This document shows, piece after piece, positions 4,548-36,372 of a stretch of 36,372 nucleotides of DNA (positions within the stretch are counted from its first letter, which is position 1; each line of letters begins with the position of its first letter). Position numbers and translations under genes: made by a program. The notes below the pieces were generated by a model. That model did no database searches and was not told the origin of the DNA. It saw only the letters and a list, made by a program, of their open reading frames with translations. Source of the stretch: a virus (Duplodnaviria; Caudoviricetes); the IMG/VR virus record IMGVR_UViG_3300037195_002099, positions 1 through 36,372 of that record. One strand, written 5' to 3'.

Positions 4548-5747
4548 TCAATGTTTCCGGTAGGTTTTGGTTAAGTCGCCTTTGACGGTGTGACCTCTTC
4601 GGCGCAGTTGATTTGAAAAGCGGGCGCGGTCATGGTGGCTGTGCGATGCTTGTCGCAATAAGCCGTAATAGCTGTTGGCCGATTCATATAGGTTCTTTGA
4701 GTCCATTGACCTGACCCGGTCCATGGCGAGATTGAACGTGCGCCGGCGTAACGTGCGGTGCCATGGCCTGATCACCTGACCAACAAAATCAACACCACGA
4801 TCGAGCGGTTGGAGAATCGTTTTCTTTGGGTTTAAGCTGGCATTGAGCTCGTTTTGCAGCACTGTTTCGATCTGATGCCGTGCTTGGTTTAGCCATTGCG
4901 GCGACTCGTGCAGTAATACGAAATCATCCACATAGCGGATGTAGTGCCGGCACTTTAGGCTGTGCTTTACGAACTGATCCAGGACGTTCAGATATACGTT
5001 TGCAAAGAACTGGCTGGAAAGGTTGCCAATGGGCAGGCCTAAATAAGAGGGCTGATTGCACAGGCGTTTATGCGGCGGTACCAGCTTTAGCAGCGCTGGG
5101 TTGCCACGCAACTCGTAGTTCTCACGGGGGTCATGAAACAAGATGGTGTCTGCCAACTGGAGCCACCACGGTTCATGAATATGCCTGGCCAACAGATTGC
5201 GCACGATCCGCTTATCGATGCTCACAAAGAAGTTTGCCAGATCGCACTTCATATAGTGCGCAGGCCGGCTCCAGTTTTGAGTGATGCTCCTTGCTTTGGA
5301 TTCAAGCCGTGTGGCTGCGTAGGCAGTGCCTCGGCCTGGAATGCACGCGCAGGAGTCTGCGATAAAACGAGCCGTGAACCGTGGGGAAATTTTGTTGTGC
5401 AGTAAGTGATGAACCACGCGGTCACGGAAAGTCGCGGCCCACACTTCTCGTGGTTTAGGGTGGGTGATGATGAAGCAAACCGATTTTCCAGGCCGGTAGT
5501 GCCCGTTTACGAGCTCGTCGTGAAGTTCACGCAGGTTGTCTTCAAGTTTCTCTTCAAAAGCAAGAGCGCTGGCACTATTGCGTTTTCGTTCACGGCAGTC
5601 GAAGTATGCGTCTATCAGTTCGCCAAACGTAAAGTCAGCAGGTGCGCTCCAATCTGCGGACGGCACGGGCGCGAAGCTCGACACCCTTGTGGTTGTTGTT
5701 CTGATTGCCGTTGTTGAAGTTCTGATTCCAGGCATAGCTGGACTCAT
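4548..5747 (-). CDS. DGR reverse transcriptase
   Basis: KPREVWAATFRDRVVHH, KCDLANFF, GLPIGNLSSQFFANVYL (DGR-type IGxxxSQ), YIRYVDD, GVDFVG; frame open to 5957, nearest ATGs at 5747/5735, start uncertain. Confidence 0.96.
   Translation of the reverse strand: MSPAMPGIRTSTTAIRTTTTRVSSFAPVPSADWSAPADFTFGELIDAYFDCRERKRNSASALAFEEKLEDNLRELHDELVNGHYRPGKSVCFIITHPKPREVWAATFRDRVVHHLLHNKISPRFTARFIADSCACIPGRGTAYAATRLESKARSITQNWSRPAHYMKCDLANFFVSIDKRIVRNLLARHIHEPWWLQLADTILFHDPRENYELRGNPALLKLVPPHKRLCNQPSYLGLPIGNLSSQFFANVYLNVLDQFVKHSLKCRHYIRYVDDFVLLHESPQWLNQARHQIETVLQNELNASLNPKKTILQPLDRGVDFVGQVIRPWHRTLRRRTFNLAMDRVRSMDSKNLYESANSYYGLLRQASHSHHDRARFSNQLRRRGHTVKGDLTKTYRKH
5650..5745 (-). repeat. DGR template repeat (TR)
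   Basis: GAG TCC AGC TAT GCC TGG AAT CAG AAC TTC AAC AAC GGC AAT CAG AAC AAC AAC CAC AAG...GTC CGC AGA TT; 8 AAY codons; aligns without gaps to both VRs. Confidence 0.97.
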
Positions 5748-5883
5748 CGTGCTATCTACGTCGCCCGGTCGATTATTCAACGGGGAAACTGCGCAGGACC
5801 TGGCCGGCAAGGTGACGGAGGTTTCCTTTGTGCGCATGTCGGTGCCTTTGTGGGGCAGCGGCACGACCAGATTGAATTTCCGC

Positions 5884-6258
5884 TCAGTCATGACGGCCTT
5901 GACCTCCATGAATCGGGCGGGTTGCGGCGCGGCGCCATCCATTGGCCTGCTTGCCAATACTCGTTGTTAATTCGACCGCCTTTGCGTAGCTCGGGCGGGA
6001 GATAACACGCTTGTCGTGGCCGAGCCGTAGCATCAGGTTGATTACCTGGACTCGCTCCAACAGTTCAATAAGGTGCGGTTCTTTGTCTTGTGCGACATTG
6101 GCCCGAAACACCAGGACAACAATTTCAATGCACTCGTTGGAAATCTTCTCTCCAATCGAGCGTTTGAAATTACGGTCCATGTGCTTAACGAGCTCGGTGA
6201 CAACATCGAGCAAGTTGTAAGCGACCTTGTAAATGGGCAGGTTGGTGTGGATGGCCAT
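5884..6258 (-). CDS. avd: DGR accessory variability determinant (Avd-like four-helix-bundle protein)
   Basis: 124 aa, LPIYKVAYNLL...FKRSIGEKI...IGKQANGW pattern; lies between the targets and TR/RT. Confidence 0.9.
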   Translation of the reverse strand: MAIHTNLPIYKVAYNLLDVVTELVKHMDRNFKRSIGEKISNECIEIVVLVFRANVAQDKEPHLIELLERVQVINLMLRLGHDKRVISRPSYAKAVELTTSIGKQANGWRRAATRPIHGGQGRHD

Positions 6259-6276
6259 GCTGGTTAAATGACTGAA

Positions 6277-6744
6277 TTAATCAATAATTAATCTGCGGAC
6301 GGCACGGGCGCGAAGCTCGACACCCTTGTGGTGGTAGTTCTGAATGCCGTAGTAGAAGTACTGAAACCAGGCATAGCTGGAATCGCTCTCGTGTTCCTGG
6401 TTCGACCAGTACCAGGCGTTGGCGAATTCACCACGCAGGTTCGCAAACAAAAGGGCCTGTTCCTGACGTGAGGGCAGGTCGCCGCCATTTTTTGCCGCCC
6501 ATTTGCCCGCTTTGGCCCACGTGGCTTCTTCAATCTCGCCTGGCAGTAGGATCAAATGGTGCGAAGGCTGGCCTTCAGTGCCGAGTGCGATGCCGGCGTA
6601 ACGTTCGCCCGGGAAAAGCTTGATTGTTGTGGCCGGAACTTCGTAGTCGTTGGGCTGTAGCTGGTTTGCGTACGTGTTGATCAGGCCTGCCAAGCGCTCT
6701 TGCTCGGCTTTGATTGATTCAAGTGTGATGGCTGTCATGCTCAC
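6277..6744 (-). CDS. DGR target protein 1 (DUF1566/Lcl C-type-lectin-like fold)
   Basis: GDLPSRQEQALL, WYWS, AW.Q.F..G, RARAVRR motifs; 3' end is VR1. Confidence 0.93.
   Translation of the reverse strand: MSMTAITLESIKAEQERLAGLINTYANQLQPNDYEVPATTIKLFPGERYAGIALGTEGQPSHHLILLPGEIEEATWAKAGKWAAKNGGDLPSRQEQALLFANLRGEFANAWYWSNQEHESDSSYAWFQYFYYGIQNYHHKGVELRARAVRRLIID
6290..6381 (-). repeat. DGR variable repeat VR1
   Basis: 92 bp matching the TR with 8 mismatches, all at TR adenines (7 A>T, 1 A>C). Confidence 0.96.
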
Positions 6745-6761
6745 CTCAAATTGTTAAATGA

Positions 6762-7121
6762 TTAAATGGGCAATCTGCGGACGGCACGGGCGCGAAGCTC
6801 GACACCCTTGTGGCTGCCGTTCTGACTGCCGTAGATGAAGAACTGAATCCAGGCAGAGCTGGACTCGATTTCGTGCTCCTGGTTCGACCAATAGACGTCC
6901 TTTTGAAACTGATCCCTGCAGGTGTTCCAAAGCATGGCAAGCTCGATCTTGTTGGGCAGGTCGCCGCCGATGCTCTTGGCCCATTCAAGCTGCTCCGACC
7001 AGCTGGCGTCGTCGTTGTCGCCCGGTAGCAGAATGAGGTGGTACACGTCCCCGCGTTGATCGCCGATTGCGCCGATATAGGTTTCGCCTTCGGCAAGAGG
7101 GGGTATTTGTAGTTGCTGCAT
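6762..7121 (-). CDS. DGR target protein 2 (DUF1566/Lcl C-type-lectin-like fold)
   Basis: Paralog of target 1 (HLILLPG, GGDLP, YWSNQEHE); 3' end is VR2. Confidence 0.93.
   Translation of the reverse strand: MQQLQIPPLAEGETYIGAIGDQRGDVYHLILLPGDNDDASWSEQLEWAKSIGGDLPNKIELAMLWNTCRDQFQKDVYWSNQEHEIESSSAWIQFFIYGSQNGSHKGVELRARAVRRLPI
6771..6866 (-). repeat. DGR variable repeat VR2
   Basis: 96 bp matching the TR with 10 mismatches, all at TR adenines (5 A>T, 4 A>G, 1 A>C). Confidence 0.96.
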
Positions 7122-30026: not shown

Positions 30027-30839
30027 ATGGATTACCCAAAAAGCGACCCAAGTGTAGGCCTGGTGAATGGCCAGTTTGTTGACGAGGACTCAATTACCGG
30101 CCAGCCAGGCTCACTCATTCCAGCTGCTTGGGCCAATGCCTTGATGACGGAGCTGTTGACGGTCGTTGATCACGCTGGATTAGAGCCTGATGAAGAAGAC
30201 AATACGCAGGTACTGGCGGCTTTGCTTGAAGTTTTTGCAACGCGGTCGGATTCGATACCGAAATTCGCAACCCGGCCTGTTACTAATGTAGGTCCTGTTA
30301 TCTATGTTGAAGATCAGATGACGCTGATGCACTGGGTATCCACGGCGTTTTTCACTGGGTATCGGTCACCGTTTTCCGGAAAGCTGGAGTTTGGCTGGAC
30401 GCCAACGCCATTGCCCTGGCAAGTAGAGGCAATCGGTAATACGCTGAACGAGACGGATCACGGTGGCGTAATTGCACGTTTCAGGGAGTCGGGGCTGACC
30501 GTTGCCTTGGGTAGTTGGGTGGCCGGAGAGTACAAGATTGCTGATATGGGCGGCGGTGAGTGGAAGGCGCCGGATATGCGGGATATGTTCCTGCGGTTTA
30601 CAGGTACTGACGCTGACACTGCAAATGCGAGGATGCTTGGAACTTTTCAAGAACATGCAGTTGAAGACCATTTCCATGGGGACTGGCCTATCTCAAATCA
30701 AACAGCCGGCGGCGGCCTCGGAAGTTCTTTCGCAACCGGTGCGGGGCAAACTTCAAATACAGCTGGAATGATTACCGGAAGCTCATCAGAAGAAACCCGC
30801 TCGGTAAACGCCGCTTTCGTGCCGTTCATAAATTTATAA
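30027..30839 (+). CDS. Tail fibre: constant N-terminus plus currently expressed shufflon cassette A (30619-30839)
   Basis: MDYPKS...GSLIPAAWAN baseplate-attachment N-terminus, collar-like PDMRDMFLR, TANAR junction, tip with HFH and ETRSVNAAFVPFINL. Confidence 0.92.
   Translation: MDYPKSDPSVGLVNGQFVDEDSITGQPGSLIPAAWANALMTELLTVVDHAGLEPDEEDNTQVLAALLEVFATRSDSIPKFATRPVTNVGPVIYVEDQMTLMHWVSTAFFTGYRSPFSGKLEFGWTPTPLPWQVEAIGNTLNETDHGGVIARFRESGLTVALGSWVAGEYKIADMGGGEWKAPDMRDMFLRFTGTDADTANARMLGTFQEHAVEDHFHGDWPISNQTAGGGLGSSFATGAGQTSNTAGMITGSSSEETRSVNAAFVPFINL
30619..30629 (+). repeat. Shufflon crossover core 1 (inside tail fibre gene)
   Basis: CTGCAAATGCG, within the T-A-N-A codons. Confidence 0.9.
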
Positions 30840-31079
30840 CTGGTGCGCATGCCACGTTTGTTGATCTGTTTTCTGTTGAAGTGCGAGCTACTCGAGAAGC
30901 ATCAAAATTAAATACTTTATACGTCGATCCACCACCTAATGGGGTCGGACCAAGCCCAGTGTTTGTTAAGTAGAGAGCACCAGAGCCTGTTCCCGAGGCA
31001 TTAAAAACATCGCCGATTGTTCCAGTGATGTTCTGAATGGCATCAGACTGTTCGCTACCAAGCATCCTCGCATTTGCAG
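30826..31079 (-). other. Silent tail-fibre cassette B
   Basis: ANARMLGSEQSDAIQNITG...ENRSTNVACAPVINL*. Confidence 0.92.
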
Positions 31080-31106
31080 CGGCATGTACATCTGCCTGCA
31101 AATGCA
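31069..31106. repeat. Back-to-back crossover cores 2 and 3
   Basis: CGCATTTGCAG-cggcatGTACatctgc-CTGCAAATGCA. Confidence 0.9.
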
Positions 31107-31307
31107 AGGGTGTTGGGTTCGTCGCAAATTTCGGCATTTGAAGCTCACTCTCATTTAGCCACGCACAATCAAATAGGGCTGCAATTTGCAACAGGAGGTA
31201 GCGTTTATGATGCGAATCCAAACCTGGCCACGTTGAGTGGGGGCACTACGGGAGGCGCAGAAACTCGCCCCATTAACGTGGCGCTGTTGCCCGTTATAGA
31301 TTTATGA
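31096..31307 (+). other. Silent tail-fibre cassette C
   Basis: ANARVLGSSQISAFEAHSH...ETRPINVALLPVIDL*. Confidence 0.92.
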
Positions 31308-31517
31308 AAGCCATAAAAGCGCTATTTCGTGGCCTAGTTTCGGACTCTCCAGAAAGGCTAATAGAAGCCGATTGCGATCTTGCGGTCCCGTTCGATGCCT
31401 CTGCTGGGTATTGACCAGAACCTGTGGATCCCGACCAGCCTTGAGCGCTGATAAGGCTATGTTTGTGGGACTTGAAAGCATCACCCTGCTTAGAACCTAG
31501 TATTCGCGCATTTGCAG
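31294..31517 (-). other. Silent tail-fibre cassette D
   Basis: ANARILGSKQGDAFKSHKH...ETRPRNSAFMAFINL*. Confidence 0.92.
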
Positions 31518-31544
31518 CGAAGCGTACACCTGTCTGCAAATGCG
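31507..31544. repeat. Back-to-back crossover cores 4 and 5
   Basis: CGCATTTGCAG-cgaagcGTACacctgt-CTGCAAATGCG. Confidence 0.9.
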
Positions 31545-31751
31545 CGATATCTGTCCAGCAAACAAACTGATGCAAATAAAAGCCAGTCTCACCGGGTCAA
31601 AGTTAATGGCGTTTCACTCCAAACGGGCGGTTCAAATGTGAACCAAATACTTGACTACTCGGCTTCGGCAGGGACCGTAAACACAAGCTCTGAAGGTGCG
31701 GCTGAAGCCCGACCAATGAATACTGCATTTAGTCCATTCATAAGTTTATAA
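31534..31751 (+). other. Silent tail-fibre cassette E
   Basis: ANARYLSSKQTDANKSQSH...EARPMNTAFSPFISL*. Confidence 0.92.
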
Positions 31752-31958
31752 GCGGTATAAATGCGACGTTATCTGGACGCGCTTCGGCACCTCCGCTGTT
31801 CGCGAGCGAGCCGATATACGTTCCATCGTAAGGCGGATCGTAAGTTCGCCAGCCCGAGAAACCGCCTGATGTATTCGACGCATATGCTCCCGAAAGTGTA
31901 TGACTATGCTGTTTGTTCTGGTTTTGTTGCGAGCTGGACAACAACCTCGCATTTGCAG
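31738..31958 (-). other. Silent tail-fibre cassette F
   Basis: ANARLLSSSQQNQNKQHSH...EARPDNVAFIPLINL*. Confidence 0.92.
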
Positions 31959-31985
31959 CGGCATGTACGTCTGTCTGCAAATGCG
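31948..31985. repeat. Back-to-back crossover cores 6 and 7
   Basis: CGCATTTGCAG-cggcatGTACgtctgt-CTGCAAATGCG. Confidence 0.9.
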
Positions 31986-32183
31986 AGGGGCCTGGGAACT
32001 TACCAAGTCGATATTTTTGAGGCTCACGAACATGACCAAAGAGGGATCAATAACGTCACTACGCAGGGTGCTGGAGCATATAACATTGCTGCGACAGGCT
32101 CTATTGGTGTCACGACCTCAACAGAGGGTGGGGCCGAAACCAGGTCTGTAAACACAGCTTTTGTTCCATTCATAAGTTTATAA
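31975..32183 (+). other. Silent tail-fibre cassette G
   Basis: ANARGLGTYQVDIFEAHEH...ETRSVNTAFVPFISL*. Confidence 0.92.
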
Positions 32184-32393
32184 AAGGGGTAAATGCGGTG
32201 TTATCTGGTCTGGTTTCTGGCATCGGATTAAAACGCTGTATAAATGAAGTAGTCAATGAACTACCAGCCCCGCCATTAAGTGACCAGTTCCCGGCGCCCG
32301 CTCCGGGTATTGAGGTTAGGTAGCCGGATAGCTGCATAATAAAAGGCCCAACGGAATCGGCCTGCCCTGTTCCTAAGCCCCTTGCATTTGCAG
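32170..32393 (-). other. Silent tail-fibre cassette H (absent from the ORF track)
   Basis: Hand translation: ANARGLGTGQADSVGPFIMQLSGYLTSIPGAGAGNWSLNGGAGSSLTTSFIQRFNPMPETRPDNTAFTPFINL*. Confidence 0.9.
32383..32393 (-). repeat. Shufflon crossover core 8 (right boundary)
   Basis: CTGCAAATGCA on minus strand, preceded by CA as in core 1. Confidence 0.9.
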
Positions 32394-32469
32394 TGACACA
32401 AACCCATAACGTCGCCTGACAGCCAGTCGACTTCCCTAAATAATTGATCTGCCCCGAACGGGGCTAGGA

Positions 32470-33207
32470 GTGTTTATGCTCAAAATATATCAACAGACTG
32501 ATCACAAGGGCGTGTACCTGTACAGCCAGCAGTTTGCCTCCAAGCCTTACCTGGCGGTGTCGGTCGCAGTGCCCCCGGTTCCCCCCGGCAAGCTGGCCCA
32601 GTGGGAAACGACTCTCAACCCCGTCATCGACAGGAATTGGGGTGAAGAGGGCACCGGCCAGTGGGTGATCAAAGATGATCACCGAAAAGCGGATCTGTAC
32701 CAGATCGCCGACGGCAGCAAGTACGAGCTCGAGCAAGAGATAGAGGGTCAGTCCTATGATGGAATTGGCCCGGTACCGGCCTGGCTCACCCTGCAGGAAC
32801 GCCCCAGTAAGCACCACAACTGGGTTGACGGTGCCTGGGTACTGGACGTTGCCGCCGAGCTCGAAGACGCCAAGATCGATAAGCTGCGCGAAATCGATCA
32901 GGCGCGTGACCAGGCACTGGTTGCCGGCTTCACCCACAATGGCAACACGTTCGACAGCGATGCCAAAAGCATCCAGCGTATCAATGCCATCGCCACCCTG
33001 GCACTTATGGATCCGAACTTCAGCACGCCGTACATAACCAAAGACAACAACATCATTACCCTGGATGCCGCCGCCGTCGGCGCGTTGGGCACTGCCGCTG
33101 CGCAACACGAATCGTCGCTAGTGTTCCAGGCTCGCGCCTTGAAAGATCAGGTACTGGACGCCACTGATAAGTCTACTGTCGACGAGATTGTCTGGGTGGC
33201 TCCCTAA
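32470..33207 (+). CDS. Tail fibre assembly protein (Tfa-like, DUF4376-like C-terminus)
   Basis: W.IKDDHR, GIGPVP, HNWVDGAWVLD, GFTHNGNTFDSD, ARALKDQV..A.....VDEIVW. Confidence 0.85.
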   Translation: MFMLKIYQQTDHKGVYLYSQQFASKPYLAVSVAVPPVPPGKLAQWETTLNPVIDRNWGEEGTGQWVIKDDHRKADLYQIADGSKYELEQEIEGQSYDGIGPVPAWLTLQERPSKHHNWVDGAWVLDVAAELEDAKIDKLREIDQARDQALVAGFTHNGNTFDSDAKSIQRINAIATLALMDPNFSTPYITKDNNIITLDAAAVGALGTAAAQHESSLVFQARALKDQVLDATDKSTVDEIVWVAP

Positions 33208-34205
33208 GTGTCCTTGAGCTGTTCGAGCTGCTTTCTGCCCAGGTTGCTGCGCACCAACTTTCTGGCCAAGTCGCGGCCATGCGGATGATAGTAGCGAAGC
33301 AACATTCTGGTTGTTCGGTGTCCGGTGACCTTGGCCAACTCGTGCGCCTGGAACACAGTGGCCAGCCGGCTAGTGGACTCATGCCGCAGGTCGTGAAACC
33401 GCAGATCCCGAAAGTAGGCAGGATGCGGGCGGCGCCCGTACTTTTTGCATAGCGCTTCGTACATTTTTCTAGCTTTGGTTCTCGCCCGGATGAACGCCCG
33501 GGTAACTGCTTCGGGGCTGATGTCGAAAATGCGGCCGCGCATTGGCTTGCCGATCACGTGCTTACGCAGGCCGTCCTTGGCGAACGGGGAGAGCGGCACA
33601 TAGCGCGTGTCGCCATTTTTGGTATCGGTCAATGTGATGACGCCATGGGCAAGGTCGATCTGCTCGCGTTTGACCAGGGTTATTTCTGAGCGGCGCATGC
33701 CGGTCTCGACCGCTATCAGCATGATTAACGGAAGGTCGGGCGAGCTGGTTGCCCGACATAGCCACTCGAGCTCAGTTTTTGGACATTCATCCTCGGGGAC
33801 GCCGTTCAACCGGATTCGTTCGAACAGTCGCCGATCCCGGGCGTCATCGATGGCGGGGCGTCTGACCAGCTGCACCGGGTTGGCCAGCCAGTGCATTTGC
33901 CAGTCTTTTCGGGCCACCGTGTAAAGGTGGGAGAGCAGGGCAAGTCGACGTGTAACGGTGGAGGGTAAGTGTTCTTGGTGCCACTGGTCACGTAGTCGCA
34001 TCAGATCGGTTGGTGTGATCCGGTTAAGTGGCCGCGTGATCAGGTTTGTCGCGCGCCAAGTCTTGGCTAACGACAGTTCCTGGTAGTGGCTTTTTTTGTA
34101 TGCCGAAACCTCGGTCATATACCTGGTTAATGCCTGATCGAGAGTCGGGCAGATTCGTCTATGTCGTGCATTCAGTTTCATGACAAATGCTCGACTTTCT
34201 AACAC
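33204..34205 (-). CDS. Shufflon-type (Rci-like) tyrosine recombinase
   Basis: TLDQALTRYMTEVSAYKK N-terminus; catalytic ETGMRRSE, DTKNG, FHDLRHE, TGH, RYYH; adjacent to the cassette array; start may be ATG 34181. Confidence 0.92.
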   Translation of the reverse strand: MLESRAFVMKLNARHRRICPTLDQALTRYMTEVSAYKKSHYQELSLAKTWRATNLITRPLNRITPTDLMRLRDQWHQEHLPSTVTRRLALLSHLYTVARKDWQMHWLANPVQLVRRPAIDDARDRRLFERIRLNGVPEDECPKTELEWLCRATSSPDLPLIMLIAVETGMRRSEITLVKREQIDLAHGVITLTDTKNGDTRYVPLSPFAKDGLRKHVIGKPMRGRIFDISPEAVTRAFIRARTKARKMYEALCKKYGRRPHPAYFRDLRFHDLRHESTSRLATVFQAHELAKVTGHRTTRMLLRYYHPHGRDLARKLVRSNLGRKQLEQLKDT

Positions 34206-34208
34206 AAC

Positions 34209-34231
34209 GCCCCAGCGATGGGGCTTTTTTT
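34209..34231 (+). terminator. Terminator-like hairpin upstream of the lysis genes
   Basis: GCCCCA-gcga-TGGGGC-TTTTTTT. Confidence 0.6.
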
Positions 34232-34254
34232 ATGTCCAACCGAAAGGGGAAGAG

Positions 34255-35677: not shown

Positions 35678-36154
35678 TTAGGGCTGTTCGCTTGCCCATT
35701 GCGCACGAAGCTGGGGCGAGTCCTCTTGATGTGTTAACTTGCGCCACGCCTCGTAGGCCCCAGCATTCAGCATGCTGGCCTCAATCTCAACAACATCAAT
35801 CAGTGCCCACCGTGCCCGAGCAATTGCTGCTGCGTGAAATGTAGTCGGCAGGCCTTGCATATTGGGTTGATAACGAGCAAGGTCTTCATCGTCAGCGTAG
35901 CGCACGACCGGCACCGTCCCATTCGGGACCCCATGTTCTGAAACGATGCTGTTAACTTGATCGATTAGATTTTTTGACATTTCTAGAGATGCCTTCTCAA
36001 GTTCTCTGATTGCCGTTGCCACCTGTGTTGGTACGGTATTGCGCCCGGACTCCCAATGTCGAACAGTGCGCTCTTGTACGTCGCAAAATTTAGCGAACCA
36101 TGGAACCGAAAGGCCCAGGGCCTCTCGGATTGTTTTTAATGTGGCCCCGTTCAT
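35678..36154 (-). CDS. Aca2/DUF1870(YdiL)-like HTH regulator
   Basis: MNGATLKTIREALGLSVPWFAKFCDVQERTVRHWESGRNTVP HTH plus C-terminal VVRYADDEDL...FHAAAIARA region. Confidence 0.72.
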   Translation of the reverse strand: MNGATLKTIREALGLSVPWFAKFCDVQERTVRHWESGRNTVPTQVATAIRELEKASLEMSKNLIDQVNSIVSEHGVPNGTVPVVRYADDEDLARYQPNMQGLPTTFHAAAIARARWALIDVVEIEASMLNAGAYEAWRKLTHQEDSPQLRAQWASEQP

Positions 36155-36372
36155 ACTTGTGGATTCGGGTTCGTGTAGCTGCGTTGACCACATGCTTGAG
36201 CAACTTTTCGTGCTGGCTTGTTAGCGTTGGCATAGAAAAAATGAAGGTCTTTTGCATCCAGCCCTTTCAGGCCCGACCATTGCGCTTCGATTACCTGGCC
36301 AGCTGTCCAGCCTTCAAATTTACGGATACCTTTTGATAAGGTGGTCAGTGCGTCGTTTCGTGTCATGCTCAT
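36151..36372 (-). CDS. Small orphan protein coupled to the Aca2-like gene
   Basis: 73 aa; its TGA overlaps the HTH gene ATG (ATGA); start lies at the window edge. Confidence 0.65.
   Translation of the reverse strand: MSMTRNDALTTLSKGIRKFEGWTAGQVIEAQWSGLKGLDAKDLHFFYANANKPARKVAQACGQRSYTNPNPQV

What the first reader, a model, noticed from the sequence alone, without database searches (positions are those of the whole stretch)
30027..34205. Eight-way tail-fibre shufflon with an Rci-like tyrosine recombinase
Seen: the fibre gene contains CTGCAAATGCG at its TANAR codons. Seven more copies (31069, 31096, 31507, 31534, 31948, 31975, 32383) alternate in orientation, and each opens an in-frame, start-less ~68-83-aa cassette. 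The cassettes share ANAR.L...Q, often HxH, and E(T/A/N)R..N.A...I(N/S/D)L*, but have unrelated middles. All eight are intact. A tyrosine recombinase with a full R-K-H-R-H-Y set lies about 800 bp away. Established: this is the logic of the R64 pilV shufflon, whereas Mu Gin and P1 Cin are serine invertases with two states. Inference: eight switchable receptor specificities.
Basis: partly seen in the sequence, partly recalled or inferred. Interest (0 to 1): 0.9.

Follow-up and report, generated by a model that had tools for sequence, protein, structure and literature searches.

The report
Active eight-tip phage tail-fibre shufflon
A prophage of a Pusillimonas bacterium stores eight interchangeable tips for its tail fibre, public assemblies show the DNA flipped into three different orders at the shared 10-base site, and the neighbouring Rci-related enzyme likely does the flipping to change which cells the phage would bind, a known kind of switch here built from a widespread enzyme lineage of its own.

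Summary
There are eight exact CTGCAAATGC sites in alternating orientation, eight intact in-frame tips and a full tyrosine recombinase. The switch is active: public contigs show three arrangements, with tip 1, tip 4 or tip 8 on the fibre, and every joint lies in the core. The window is a prophage in a Pusillimonas genome and has its own separate integrase. The module is common in related proviruses: close relatives of the recombinase sit beside two or more tips in 36 of 38 loci, distant ones in 0 of 17. It works like the R64 shufflon, with a 7-bp asymmetric core, but it is not an Rci. It is 34% identical, lacks Rci's C-terminal domain and forms a separate clade. Tyrosine-driven phage fibre shufflons are published (Rin, PMC6109161), and this scan noted similar ones on other DNA. 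Enzyme activity and receptor switching are inferred, not shown. Verdict: new variant of a known kind.

The parts
30027..30618 (+). Constant 5' part of the tail-fibre gene (residues 1-198): baseplate-attachment region and T4-gp12/gp37-like collar
   Evidence: PHROGs tail fibre phrog_1858 E 1.8e-25; the five best fold matches are tail fibres, best T4 gp12 1ocy Z 7.1, rmsd 2.4, 73 aligned
30619..30628 (+). Expression (constant) crossover site 1, CTGCAAATGC
   Evidence: joints at 30618/30619 in X4, X5, X6
30621..30839 (+). Tip 1 (72 aa), expressed in the window's arrangement
   Evidence: same order in X1 and X3
30826..31079 (-). Site 2 and tip 2 (83 aa)
   Evidence: phrog_523 E 8.7e-9
31080..31095 (.). 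16-bp spacer between back-to-back sites 2 and 3 (shared left arms, central GTAC)
   Evidence: 16 bp in all 40 close back-to-back pairs of related loci, redundant loci included
31096..31307 (+). Site 3 and tip 3 (69 aa)
31294..31517 (-). Site 4 and tip 4 (73 aa); joined to the constant part in arrangement B
   Evidence: inversion 30619-31517 in X4, X5, X6 and G006
31518..31533 (.). 16-bp spacer between sites 4 and 5
31534..31751 (+). Site 5 and tip 5 (71 aa)
31738..31958 (-). Site 6 and tip 6 (72 aa)
   Evidence: 54% identical over 46 aa to a tip of L006
31959..31974 (.). 16-bp spacer between sites 6 and 7
31975..32183 (+). Site 7 and tip 7 (68 aa)
   Evidence: inversion 31975-32393 in X4, X5, X6 and L005
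32170..32393 (-). Site 8 and tip 8 (73 aa); joined to the constant part in arrangement C
   Evidence: reciprocal 48-nt junction contigs in X7
32476..33207 (+). Likely tail-fibre assembly protein (DUF4376), outside the invertible region
   Evidence: PF14301 E 2.8e-21; PHROGs tail fibre and fibre-assembly families
33204..34181 (-). Tyrosine recombinase, 325 aa, no arm-binding domain; the likely invertase
   Evidence: PF00589; 34% identical to R64 Rci; tyrosine-recombinase fold; linked to tip arrays
34209..34234 (+). Terminator-like hairpin just upstream of the recombinase gene
   Evidence: Consensus scan only

Best explanation
The locus is an active multiple-inversion switch: the DNA is found in three orders with joints in the CTGCAAATGC core, and the adjacent tyrosine recombinase likely catalyses the inversions, which would change the receptor-binding tip of the tail fibre. 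Shown: one constant fibre start, four invertible two-tip segments and three 16-bp spacers; every tip reads in frame once joined at site 1; tips 1, 4 and 8 occur joined to the constant part. Inferred: strands exchange in a 7-bp asymmetric core (CTGCAAA) flanked by weakly symmetric arms, as at R64 sfx. Tips 2, 4, 6 and 8 are then one inversion from the present state and tips 3, 5 and 7 are two, giving 384 tip orders. Predicted from the fold match: each cassette leaves the collar, forms the variable tip loop (often with an HxH motif) and returns to the collar, which would explain the conserved ends and variable middle. Inferred by analogy with Mu, R64 and FRphi: different tips bind different surface receptors, so a lysogen would release a mixed phage population.
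For: Rearranged contigs of the same phage at 99-100% identity: window order in X1 and X3; inversions 30619-31517 plus 31975-32393 in X4, X5, X6 and the Pusillimonas MAG; both window junctions and both junctions of a 30619-32393 inversion in X7. L065 and L066 hold the same four tips with the first segment inverted. 8 of 80 related contigs end within 20 nt of the constant site. 34 of 39 loci with at least 3 kb downstream carry the recombinase. Conversely, among loci with at least 2.5 kb downstream, two or more tips occur at 36 of 38 recombinases at 55% identity or more, 4 of 9 at 42-55%, and 0 of 17 below 42%. A separate integrase and tRNA-Cys att repeat exist for this prophage and a second integrase in 5 of 5 related proviruses. 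Dyad symmetry of 189 silent sites peaks at centre 4 (0.338 against 0.22-0.29). Variants at core positions 1 and 5 are uniform within each locus, whereas positions 9, 10 and 11 vary within 3, 7 and 25 of 45 loci. 7 of 8 tips match tail-fibre or collar PHROGs.
Against: No enzyme assay and no raw or long reads: all laid runs are contigs. X4/X6 and X7/X8 look like the same data filed twice, several runs may be the source of the window, and they come from few studies. The tip-8 junction contigs carry only 14 letters beyond the core at depth 3.3. Tips 2, 3, 5, 6 and 7 were never seen expressed. 5 of 39 related arrays show no recombinase within the fetched DNA, so a trans-acting or lost enzyme occurs. 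The tip region of the monomer model is low confidence (residues 188-262 below pLDDT 50), and Z 7.1 is in the range that can mean a common arrangement. No receptor evidence. The invariance of core positions 1-4 and 6-7 is partly imposed by my filter.
Confidence: 0.88

Rival explanations
1. The inversions are real but are made by another enzyme (host Xer or another element's invertase), and the adjacent recombinase is a passenger or has another target.
For: 5 of 39 arrays lack the enzyme in the fetched DNA. The host genome has 8 PF00589 matches. No assay was run.
Against: The enzyme clade and the arrays co-occur in both directions. The enzyme's closest characterised relative is a shufflon invertase with a similar core, GTGCCAA against CTGCAAA.
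Confidence: 0.06
2. The recombinase is the phage integrase, as are many proteins labelled 'shufflon-specific recombinase' in Pseudomonas and Ralstonia phages, and the array is rearranged only rarely by homologous or illegitimate recombination.
For: The best hits among cultured phages are annotated integrase, at 32-38% identity. PMC3414803 reports Rci-like prophage enzymes with no shufflon.
Against: This prophage has its own integrase (354-aa open frame) beside a 51-bp att repeat in tRNA-Cys, and 5 of 5 related proviruses carry a second integrase. Shared sequence at the joints is only 10-11 bases, too short for homologous recombination (established knowledge).
Confidence: 0.03
3. The different orders are assembly artefacts caused by the repeats.
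For: Only contigs were available, and the MAG has N gaps at the sites.
Against: The joints sit inside 29.8-kb contigs at depth 26-29 with at least 255 letters each side. A 10-11-base repeat is far shorter than the 31-letter words on which these contigs are indexed. Reciprocal junctions occur together.
Confidence: 0.02
4. The switch works but the tips do not differ in receptor; the protein is a short accessory fibre and the variation serves another end, such as escape from decoys or attachment to surfaces.
For: The variable middle is only about 35-50 aa and no receptor data exist. Single-copy homologues in jumbo phages are unannotated.
Against: It is the only fibre-like gene after the baseplate wedge genes among the 47 window ORFs scanned. 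In FRphi only one of three locked tips infected the host (bioRxiv 2025.07.22.666180, passages).
Confidence: 0.1

Closest known systems
R64/IncI1 pilV shufflon with the tyrosine recombinase Rci (NC_005014; PMC11852207)
   Same: Four invertible segments, back-to-back sites, constant N-terminus plus variable C-terminus. The enzyme is 34% identical over 309 aa, E 7e-41. The 7-bp core is similar (GTGCCAA against CTGCAAA); 7 of 10 bases match, 8 of 10 for the Castellaniella variant.
   Different: Target is a phage fibre, not a pilus adhesin. Eight sites against seven. The spacer between back-to-back sites is 16 bp against 8. The right arm differs. Only 28 aa follow the catalytic Tyr (15-56 across the tip-linked clade) against 113-117 in Rci. 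Separate clade; a joint clade with Rci is rejected.
Rin shufflon of Bifidobacterium prophages (PMC6109161) and Eggerthella prophages (PMC8778435)
   Same: Phage-encoded, arm-less tyrosine invertase distinct from the integrase; short asymmetric repeat; constant N-terminus plus several variable C-termini; inversions seen in sequencing data.
   Different: Rin: actinobacterial hosts, site TTCCCTAACCC, TP901-1-like RBP ends of 95-100 aa, five alleles, XerD-like enzyme. Here: Betaproteobacteria, contractile tail, T4-type collar fibre, 68-83-aa tips, eight alleles, Rci-related enzyme.
p15B Min and FRphi tail-fibre shufflons (Min as described in PMC6109161; FRphi in bioRxiv 10.1101/2025.07.22.666180)
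   Same: Multi-cassette tail-fibre tip switching in proteobacterial temperate phages. FRphi shows that locked tips differ in infectivity, and relatives hold up to six paralogues.
   Different: Serine (Gin-type) invertases and different sites.
Famint20 prophage recombinases of Van Houdt et al. 2012 (PMC3414803)
   Same: Rci-related tyrosine recombinases in betaproteobacterial prophages, annotated 'shufflon-specific DNA recombinase'; the list includes one from Bordetella petrii DSM 12804.
   Different: That paper found no shufflon-like structure at any of its nine prophages. Here the L072 recombinase, identical to B. petrii CAP44783.1, lies beside three tips. Whether it is the protein in their list was not established.

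Membership tests
Shufflon (multiple DNA inversion system) | More than two recombination sites in both orientations separating invertible coding segments | tested here: met
   Eight sites, four per strand
Shufflon (multiple DNA inversion system) | Each segment fuses in frame to one constant 5' gene part | tested here: met
   Eight open frames; fused lengths 266-281 aa
Shufflon (multiple DNA inversion system) | Rearranged forms exist with crossovers at the sites | tested here: met
   contigs only
Shufflon (multiple DNA inversion system) | The linked recombinase catalyses the inversions | not testable with these tools
   Co-occurrence only
Tyrosine recombinase superfamily | R-K-H-R-H/W-Y catalytic set and integrase fold | tested here: met
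   R163, K188, H263, R266, H288, Y297; Foldseek E 4e-11 to Tn1549 Int and 1e-9 to lambda Int
Rci (R64-type shufflon invertase) | Sequence kinship to R64 Rci and no arm-binding domain | tested here: met
   34% over 309 aa, alignment starting at residues 13 and 10
Rci (R64-type shufflon invertase) | Extra C-terminal domain, present in Rci and all 14 homologues of PMC11852207 | tested here: not met
   325 against 384 aa; 28 against 113 residues after the catalytic Tyr
Rci (R64-type shufflon invertase) | sfx site with conserved core and right arm TCCGGTRYNTGG | tested here: not met
   Core similar, right arm different. None of the sfx primers in Table S1 of PMC11852207 holds this site
Rci (R64-type shufflon invertase) | 12+7+12 site architecture with asymmetric core | tested here: inconclusive
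   Best dyad centre at position 4 and per-locus uniformity of positions 1 and 5 fit a 7-bp core; cleavage positions and arm lengths were not mapped
Rci (R64-type shufflon invertase) | One clade with plasmid Rci | tested here: not met
   Quick tree of 29 hand-picked rows of 84; AU p 1.4e-5 against a joint clade; the group was named after seeing the tree
Rin (bifidophage shufflon) | rix site TTCCCTAACCC and TP901-1-like RBP ends | tested here: not met
   Different site and fibre type
Rin (bifidophage shufflon) | Orthology of the enzyme to Rin | not tested
   No Rin sequence was fetched
Min/Gin/Cin (serine invertase systems) | Serine recombinase | tested here: not met
   The linked enzyme is PF00589; no serine recombinase among the 47 ORFs scanned
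T4 gp12/gp37-type collar-and-tip fibre | Collar fold with the C-terminus returning to the collar | tested here: inconclusive
   The five best VIA-align rows are tail fibres, Z 5.3-7.1, model range 114-270; Foldseek found nothing at E 0.001 or better
T4 gp12/gp37-type collar-and-tip fibre | Homotrimer with metal-binding HxH at the axis | not tested
   No trimer model was obtained; HxH in 5 of 8 tips and 140 of 249 related tips

The most novel reading that the evidence does not exclude
This is an independently evolved lineage of multi-site invertases that favours inversion over deletion without the C-terminal domain Rci needs for that. It runs a tip pool shared among betaproteobacterial prophages (about 225 tip types at 90% identity), exchanged between phages as tips or two-tip segments. 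It would be an orthogonal shuffling enzyme for synthetic biology and a natural library for mapping fibre tip to receptor.
Probability: 0.45. Interest if true: 0.62.

Novelty: new variant of a known kind. Interest (0 to 1): 0.45.

Why it matters
The principle is known, but this family was not found in print in my searches and appears common: 20 of 301 sampled genomes of the host family carry the constant site. It gives a testable case for an open question stated in PMC6109161, how arm-less tyrosine invertases avoid deleting DNA between direct sites, because these enzymes lack Rci's proposed solution and relatives keep up to seven sites in one direction. PMC11852207 found no fully orthogonal pair among Rci homologues, so an enzyme with a different site could be useful. 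The small swappable tips on one collar suit tip-to-receptor mapping.

Tried and rejected
Integrase role for the linked recombinase: rejected. Membership in Rci proper: rejected. NCBIfam gave no family over its cut-off for the recombinase and none for the fibre; Pfam gave none for the fibre. Foldseek on the fibre monomer gave nothing at E 0.001 or better. The complex predictor was not available, so no trimer model exists. No RNA holder was listed. The promoter scan found 1 site against 3.9 expected, so it is no evidence on expression. No cultured phage in the GenBank phage collection carries a close relative: the listed hits are at most 38% to the recombinase and 35% to the fibre, and the FLC4-4C homologue is a single annotated gene (not scanned for sites). 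X8 and X9 do not cover the array, which proves nothing. The careful tree did not finish; both trees are quick searches. An even-length core centred at 3.5 or 6.5 scored lower than centre 4. Literature searches that found no description of this family. Table 1 of PMC11852207 is an image and could not be read, bioRxiv supplements were closed, and the primary Gyohda/Komano and Min papers were not read.
Full report
Observation. The 11-mer search with one mismatch gives 11 matches against 1.66 expected (0 of 100 shuffles reach 11). The exact 10-mer CTGCAAATGC occurs eight times in the window, all between 30619 and 32393, in alternating orientation. Site 1 lies in the fibre gene at T-A-N-A-R. Every site opens an intact in-frame cassette of 68-83 aa with invariant ANAR.L...Q and E.R..N.A....I.L and middles 13-39% identical. 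Convergent tips overlap by 14 bp in 4 of 4 pairs, and back-to-back sites are 16 bp apart. The array is therefore four two-tip segments and three spacers. A DUF4376 fibre-assembly-type gene follows, then the convergent recombinase, most likely 325 aa from the ATG at 34181.

Setting. The window is a temperate phage with an HK97-type head and a Mu-like contractile tail (head type read from the Pfam families by established knowledge). The MAG titled Pusillimonas sp. UBA3987 holds the whole window at 99-100% identity. There the phage is bounded by a 51-bp repeat overlapping tRNA-Cys, with its own integrase (354-aa open frame) just left of window position 1. From those coordinates the prophage is about 37.9 kb. 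Five of five related proviruses also carry a second integrase. The fibre-linked enzyme is therefore not the integrase.

The switch is active. I laid 8 of the 21 listed runs; all are contigs. X1 and X3 have the window order (tip 1 on). X4, X5 and X6 have inversions 30619-31517 and 31975-32393 inside 29,846-nt contigs, with 10-11 shared letters at each joint (tip 4 on). The MAG shows the same order across N gaps. X7 breaks at sites 1 and 8 and holds four 48-nt contigs: both window junctions, and both junctions of a whole-array inversion (tip 8 on). The loose ends match tips 8 and 1 as read, but they are only 14 letters at depth 3.3, so this third order is weaker evidence. X8 and X9 do not cover the array. 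X4/X6 and X7/X8 have equal depths and look like the same data, and several runs may be the window's source. Between sites 7 and 8 the flanking bases differ on both sides, which confines that crossover to the 10-base core. A search over all inversions between opposite sites gives 384 tip orders; tips 2, 4, 6 and 8 need one step and tips 3, 5 and 7 two. Only tips 1, 4 and 8 were seen expressed.

A widespread family. The constant-site pattern matches 84 IMG/VR stretches (flanks were fetched for 80, and some are redundant) and 20 of 301 sampled genomes of the host's family, G006 itself included. Of the 80, 8 end within 20 nt of the core, as expected where a mixed population breaks an assembly. 34 of the 39 with at least 3 kb downstream carry the recombinase and 5 do not. 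Starting from the enzyme (80 loci, 64 with at least 2.5 kb downstream), two or more tips occur at 36 of 38 loci at 55% identity or more, 4 of 9 at 42-55% and 0 of 17 below 42%. Forty-two distinct arrays hold 1-9 tips; 2 hold eight (one is this phage) and 2 hold nine. Named carriers are Castellaniella and a Burkholderiaceae MAG, and identical or clustered proteins are from Bordetella petrii, Bordetella sp. H567 and Paenalcaligenes. The 110 loci (redundant ones included) give 249 distinct tips, a few of them spurious nested hits, in 225 clusters at 90% identity. L002 is 94% identical in the flanks and 98% in the enzyme but has three different tips. L047 and L073 share one two-tip segment among otherwise different tips, and L065 and L066 differ by one inversion. 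The constant parts of the fibres differ widely upstream of the collar, so the collar-tip-recombinase module appears to move between phage types (inference).

Site anatomy. Among 189 silent sites the best dyad centre is core position 4 (0.338 complementary against 0.22-0.29 elsewhere), which implies a 7-bp core, CTGCAAA. Position 5 is G in all sites of five distinct loci, and position 1 is A or G throughout the loci that vary there. Positions 9, 10 and 11 vary within 3, 7 and 25 of 45 loci. This is what matching in the overlap region predicts. The filter fixed positions 1-4 and 6-7, so only the looser scans speak for those. R64 sfx has the core GTGCCAA in a 12+7+12 site (PMC11852207, sections read: abstract, introduction, results, discussion, part of methods, Table S1, passages of files 1 and 2). 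Seven of the first ten bases match ours, eight in the Castellaniella variant.

The enzyme. It has the full catalytic set (H288 is N in 4 of 12 aligned relatives), a tyrosine-recombinase fold and 34% identity to R64 Rci over 309 aa. It lacks Rci's C-terminal domain: 28 residues follow the catalytic Tyr against 113. PMC11852207 and PMC4482086 (passages) tie that domain to recombination at asymmetric sites and to inversion-only behaviour. It has two insertions relative to Rci, each with a conserved Cys. In a quick tree of 29 hand-picked rows of 84, the 19 rows of the tip-linked group form a clade (SH-aLRT 98) whose nearest rows lack tips, and a joint clade with Rci is rejected (AU p 1.4e-5; the group was named after seeing the tree). 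So it works like Rci but is not an Rci. Whether the likeness of the sites is inherited or convergent is open. Relatives keep up to seven sites in one direction (L086, L138), so deletion is either suppressed or selected against.

The fibre. PHROGs call it a tail fibre, and 7 of 8 tips match fibre or collar families at E 0.01 or better. A profile of 20 fibres matches a solved short tail fibre across the site and cassette (9cuy, E 2.4e-6). The monomer model is confident for most of residues 78-180 and poor for 188-262. Its five best VIA-align matches are fibres, led by the T4 gp12 receptor-binding domain (Z 7.1, rmsd 2.4, 73 aligned) and including the gp37 needle; Foldseek found nothing significant. 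In gp12 and gp37 the chain runs from the collar to the tip and back, with HxH metal sites (recalled, from no call). That fits conserved cassette ends around a variable middle. No trimer model was obtained. Receptor switching is inferred from FRphi (bioRxiv 2025.07.22.666180, passages) and R64.

Comparison and novelty. Rin (PMC6109161; passages and the full shufflon section) already shows a phage tyrosine invertase shuffling receptor-binding ends, and the same paper describes Min. PMC8778435 (passages), PMC13596623 (passages) and PMC9881135 (passages) add further cases. PMC2647930, PMC8138268 and PMC10028968 (passages) added nothing on this family. PMC3414803 (passages and one supplement part) grouped nine prophage enzymes with Rci and found no shufflon beside them. 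One is from B. petrii DSM 12804, and a protein identical to B. petrii CAP44783.1 lies beside three tips in L072; I could not show it is the same entry. Ten searches found no description of this site or clade, but subscription papers and closed supplements could hold one. This scan noted similar devices on other DNA, one sharing 3 of 180 short words with this enzyme; I did not test those notes.

Verdict. A real, active, eight-tip fibre shufflon, a new variant of a known kind: interest 0.45. Its value lies in the direct evidence of switching, the breadth of the family and an enzyme that lacks Rci's directionality domain.

Noticed in passing
window 4548-7121 (minus strand): A diversity-generating retroelement in the same prophage: reverse transcriptase, bAvd-like gene, template repeat 5651-5742 and two variable repeats (6290-6381, 6772-6863) in two Lcl_C-like genes of the early region. 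All mismatches fall at template adenines, 8 of 8 and 10 of 10. The phage thus carries two diversifying systems, and the DGR targets are not in the tail operon.
   Followed up: partly
window 6784: The 29,846-nt contigs of X1, X4, X5 and X6 all begin at about this position, inside a DGR variable repeat (computed and 18 coordinates), which may reflect the repeat or variation there.
   Followed up: no
G006:C12:32747-32797 and G006:C16:275363-275413: 51-bp att repeat overlapping tRNA-Cys, with the phage integrase at C12:31564-32628.
   Followed up: yes
L086, L025, L053, L057, L068: Tip arrays (nine tips in L086) without the recombinase in the fetched DNA: frozen, or served in trans.
   Followed up: no
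L142, L143, L145, L154: More distant relatives use GTGCAAA or ATGCAAA cores, uniform within each locus; GTGCAAA is one base from the R64 core.
   Followed up: partly
L024/L146: The recombinase lies between the array and the assembly gene and in the same direction as the fibre, a different gene order.
   Followed up: no
L027, L042, L055, L066: The second catalytic His is replaced by Asn (NGNVD) in recombinases that still sit beside multi-tip arrays.
   Followed up: no
L178:3869-4624: Ralstonia/Burkholderia jumbo phages (FLC4-4C, RSL2, FLC6, FLC8) have a 33-35% identical homologue of collar plus tip; in FLC4-4C it is a single unannotated gene.
   Followed up: partly
window 35678-36193 (minus strand): HTH gene with DUF4447 and weak Aca2/YdiL-like matches near the right prophage end.
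   Followed up: no
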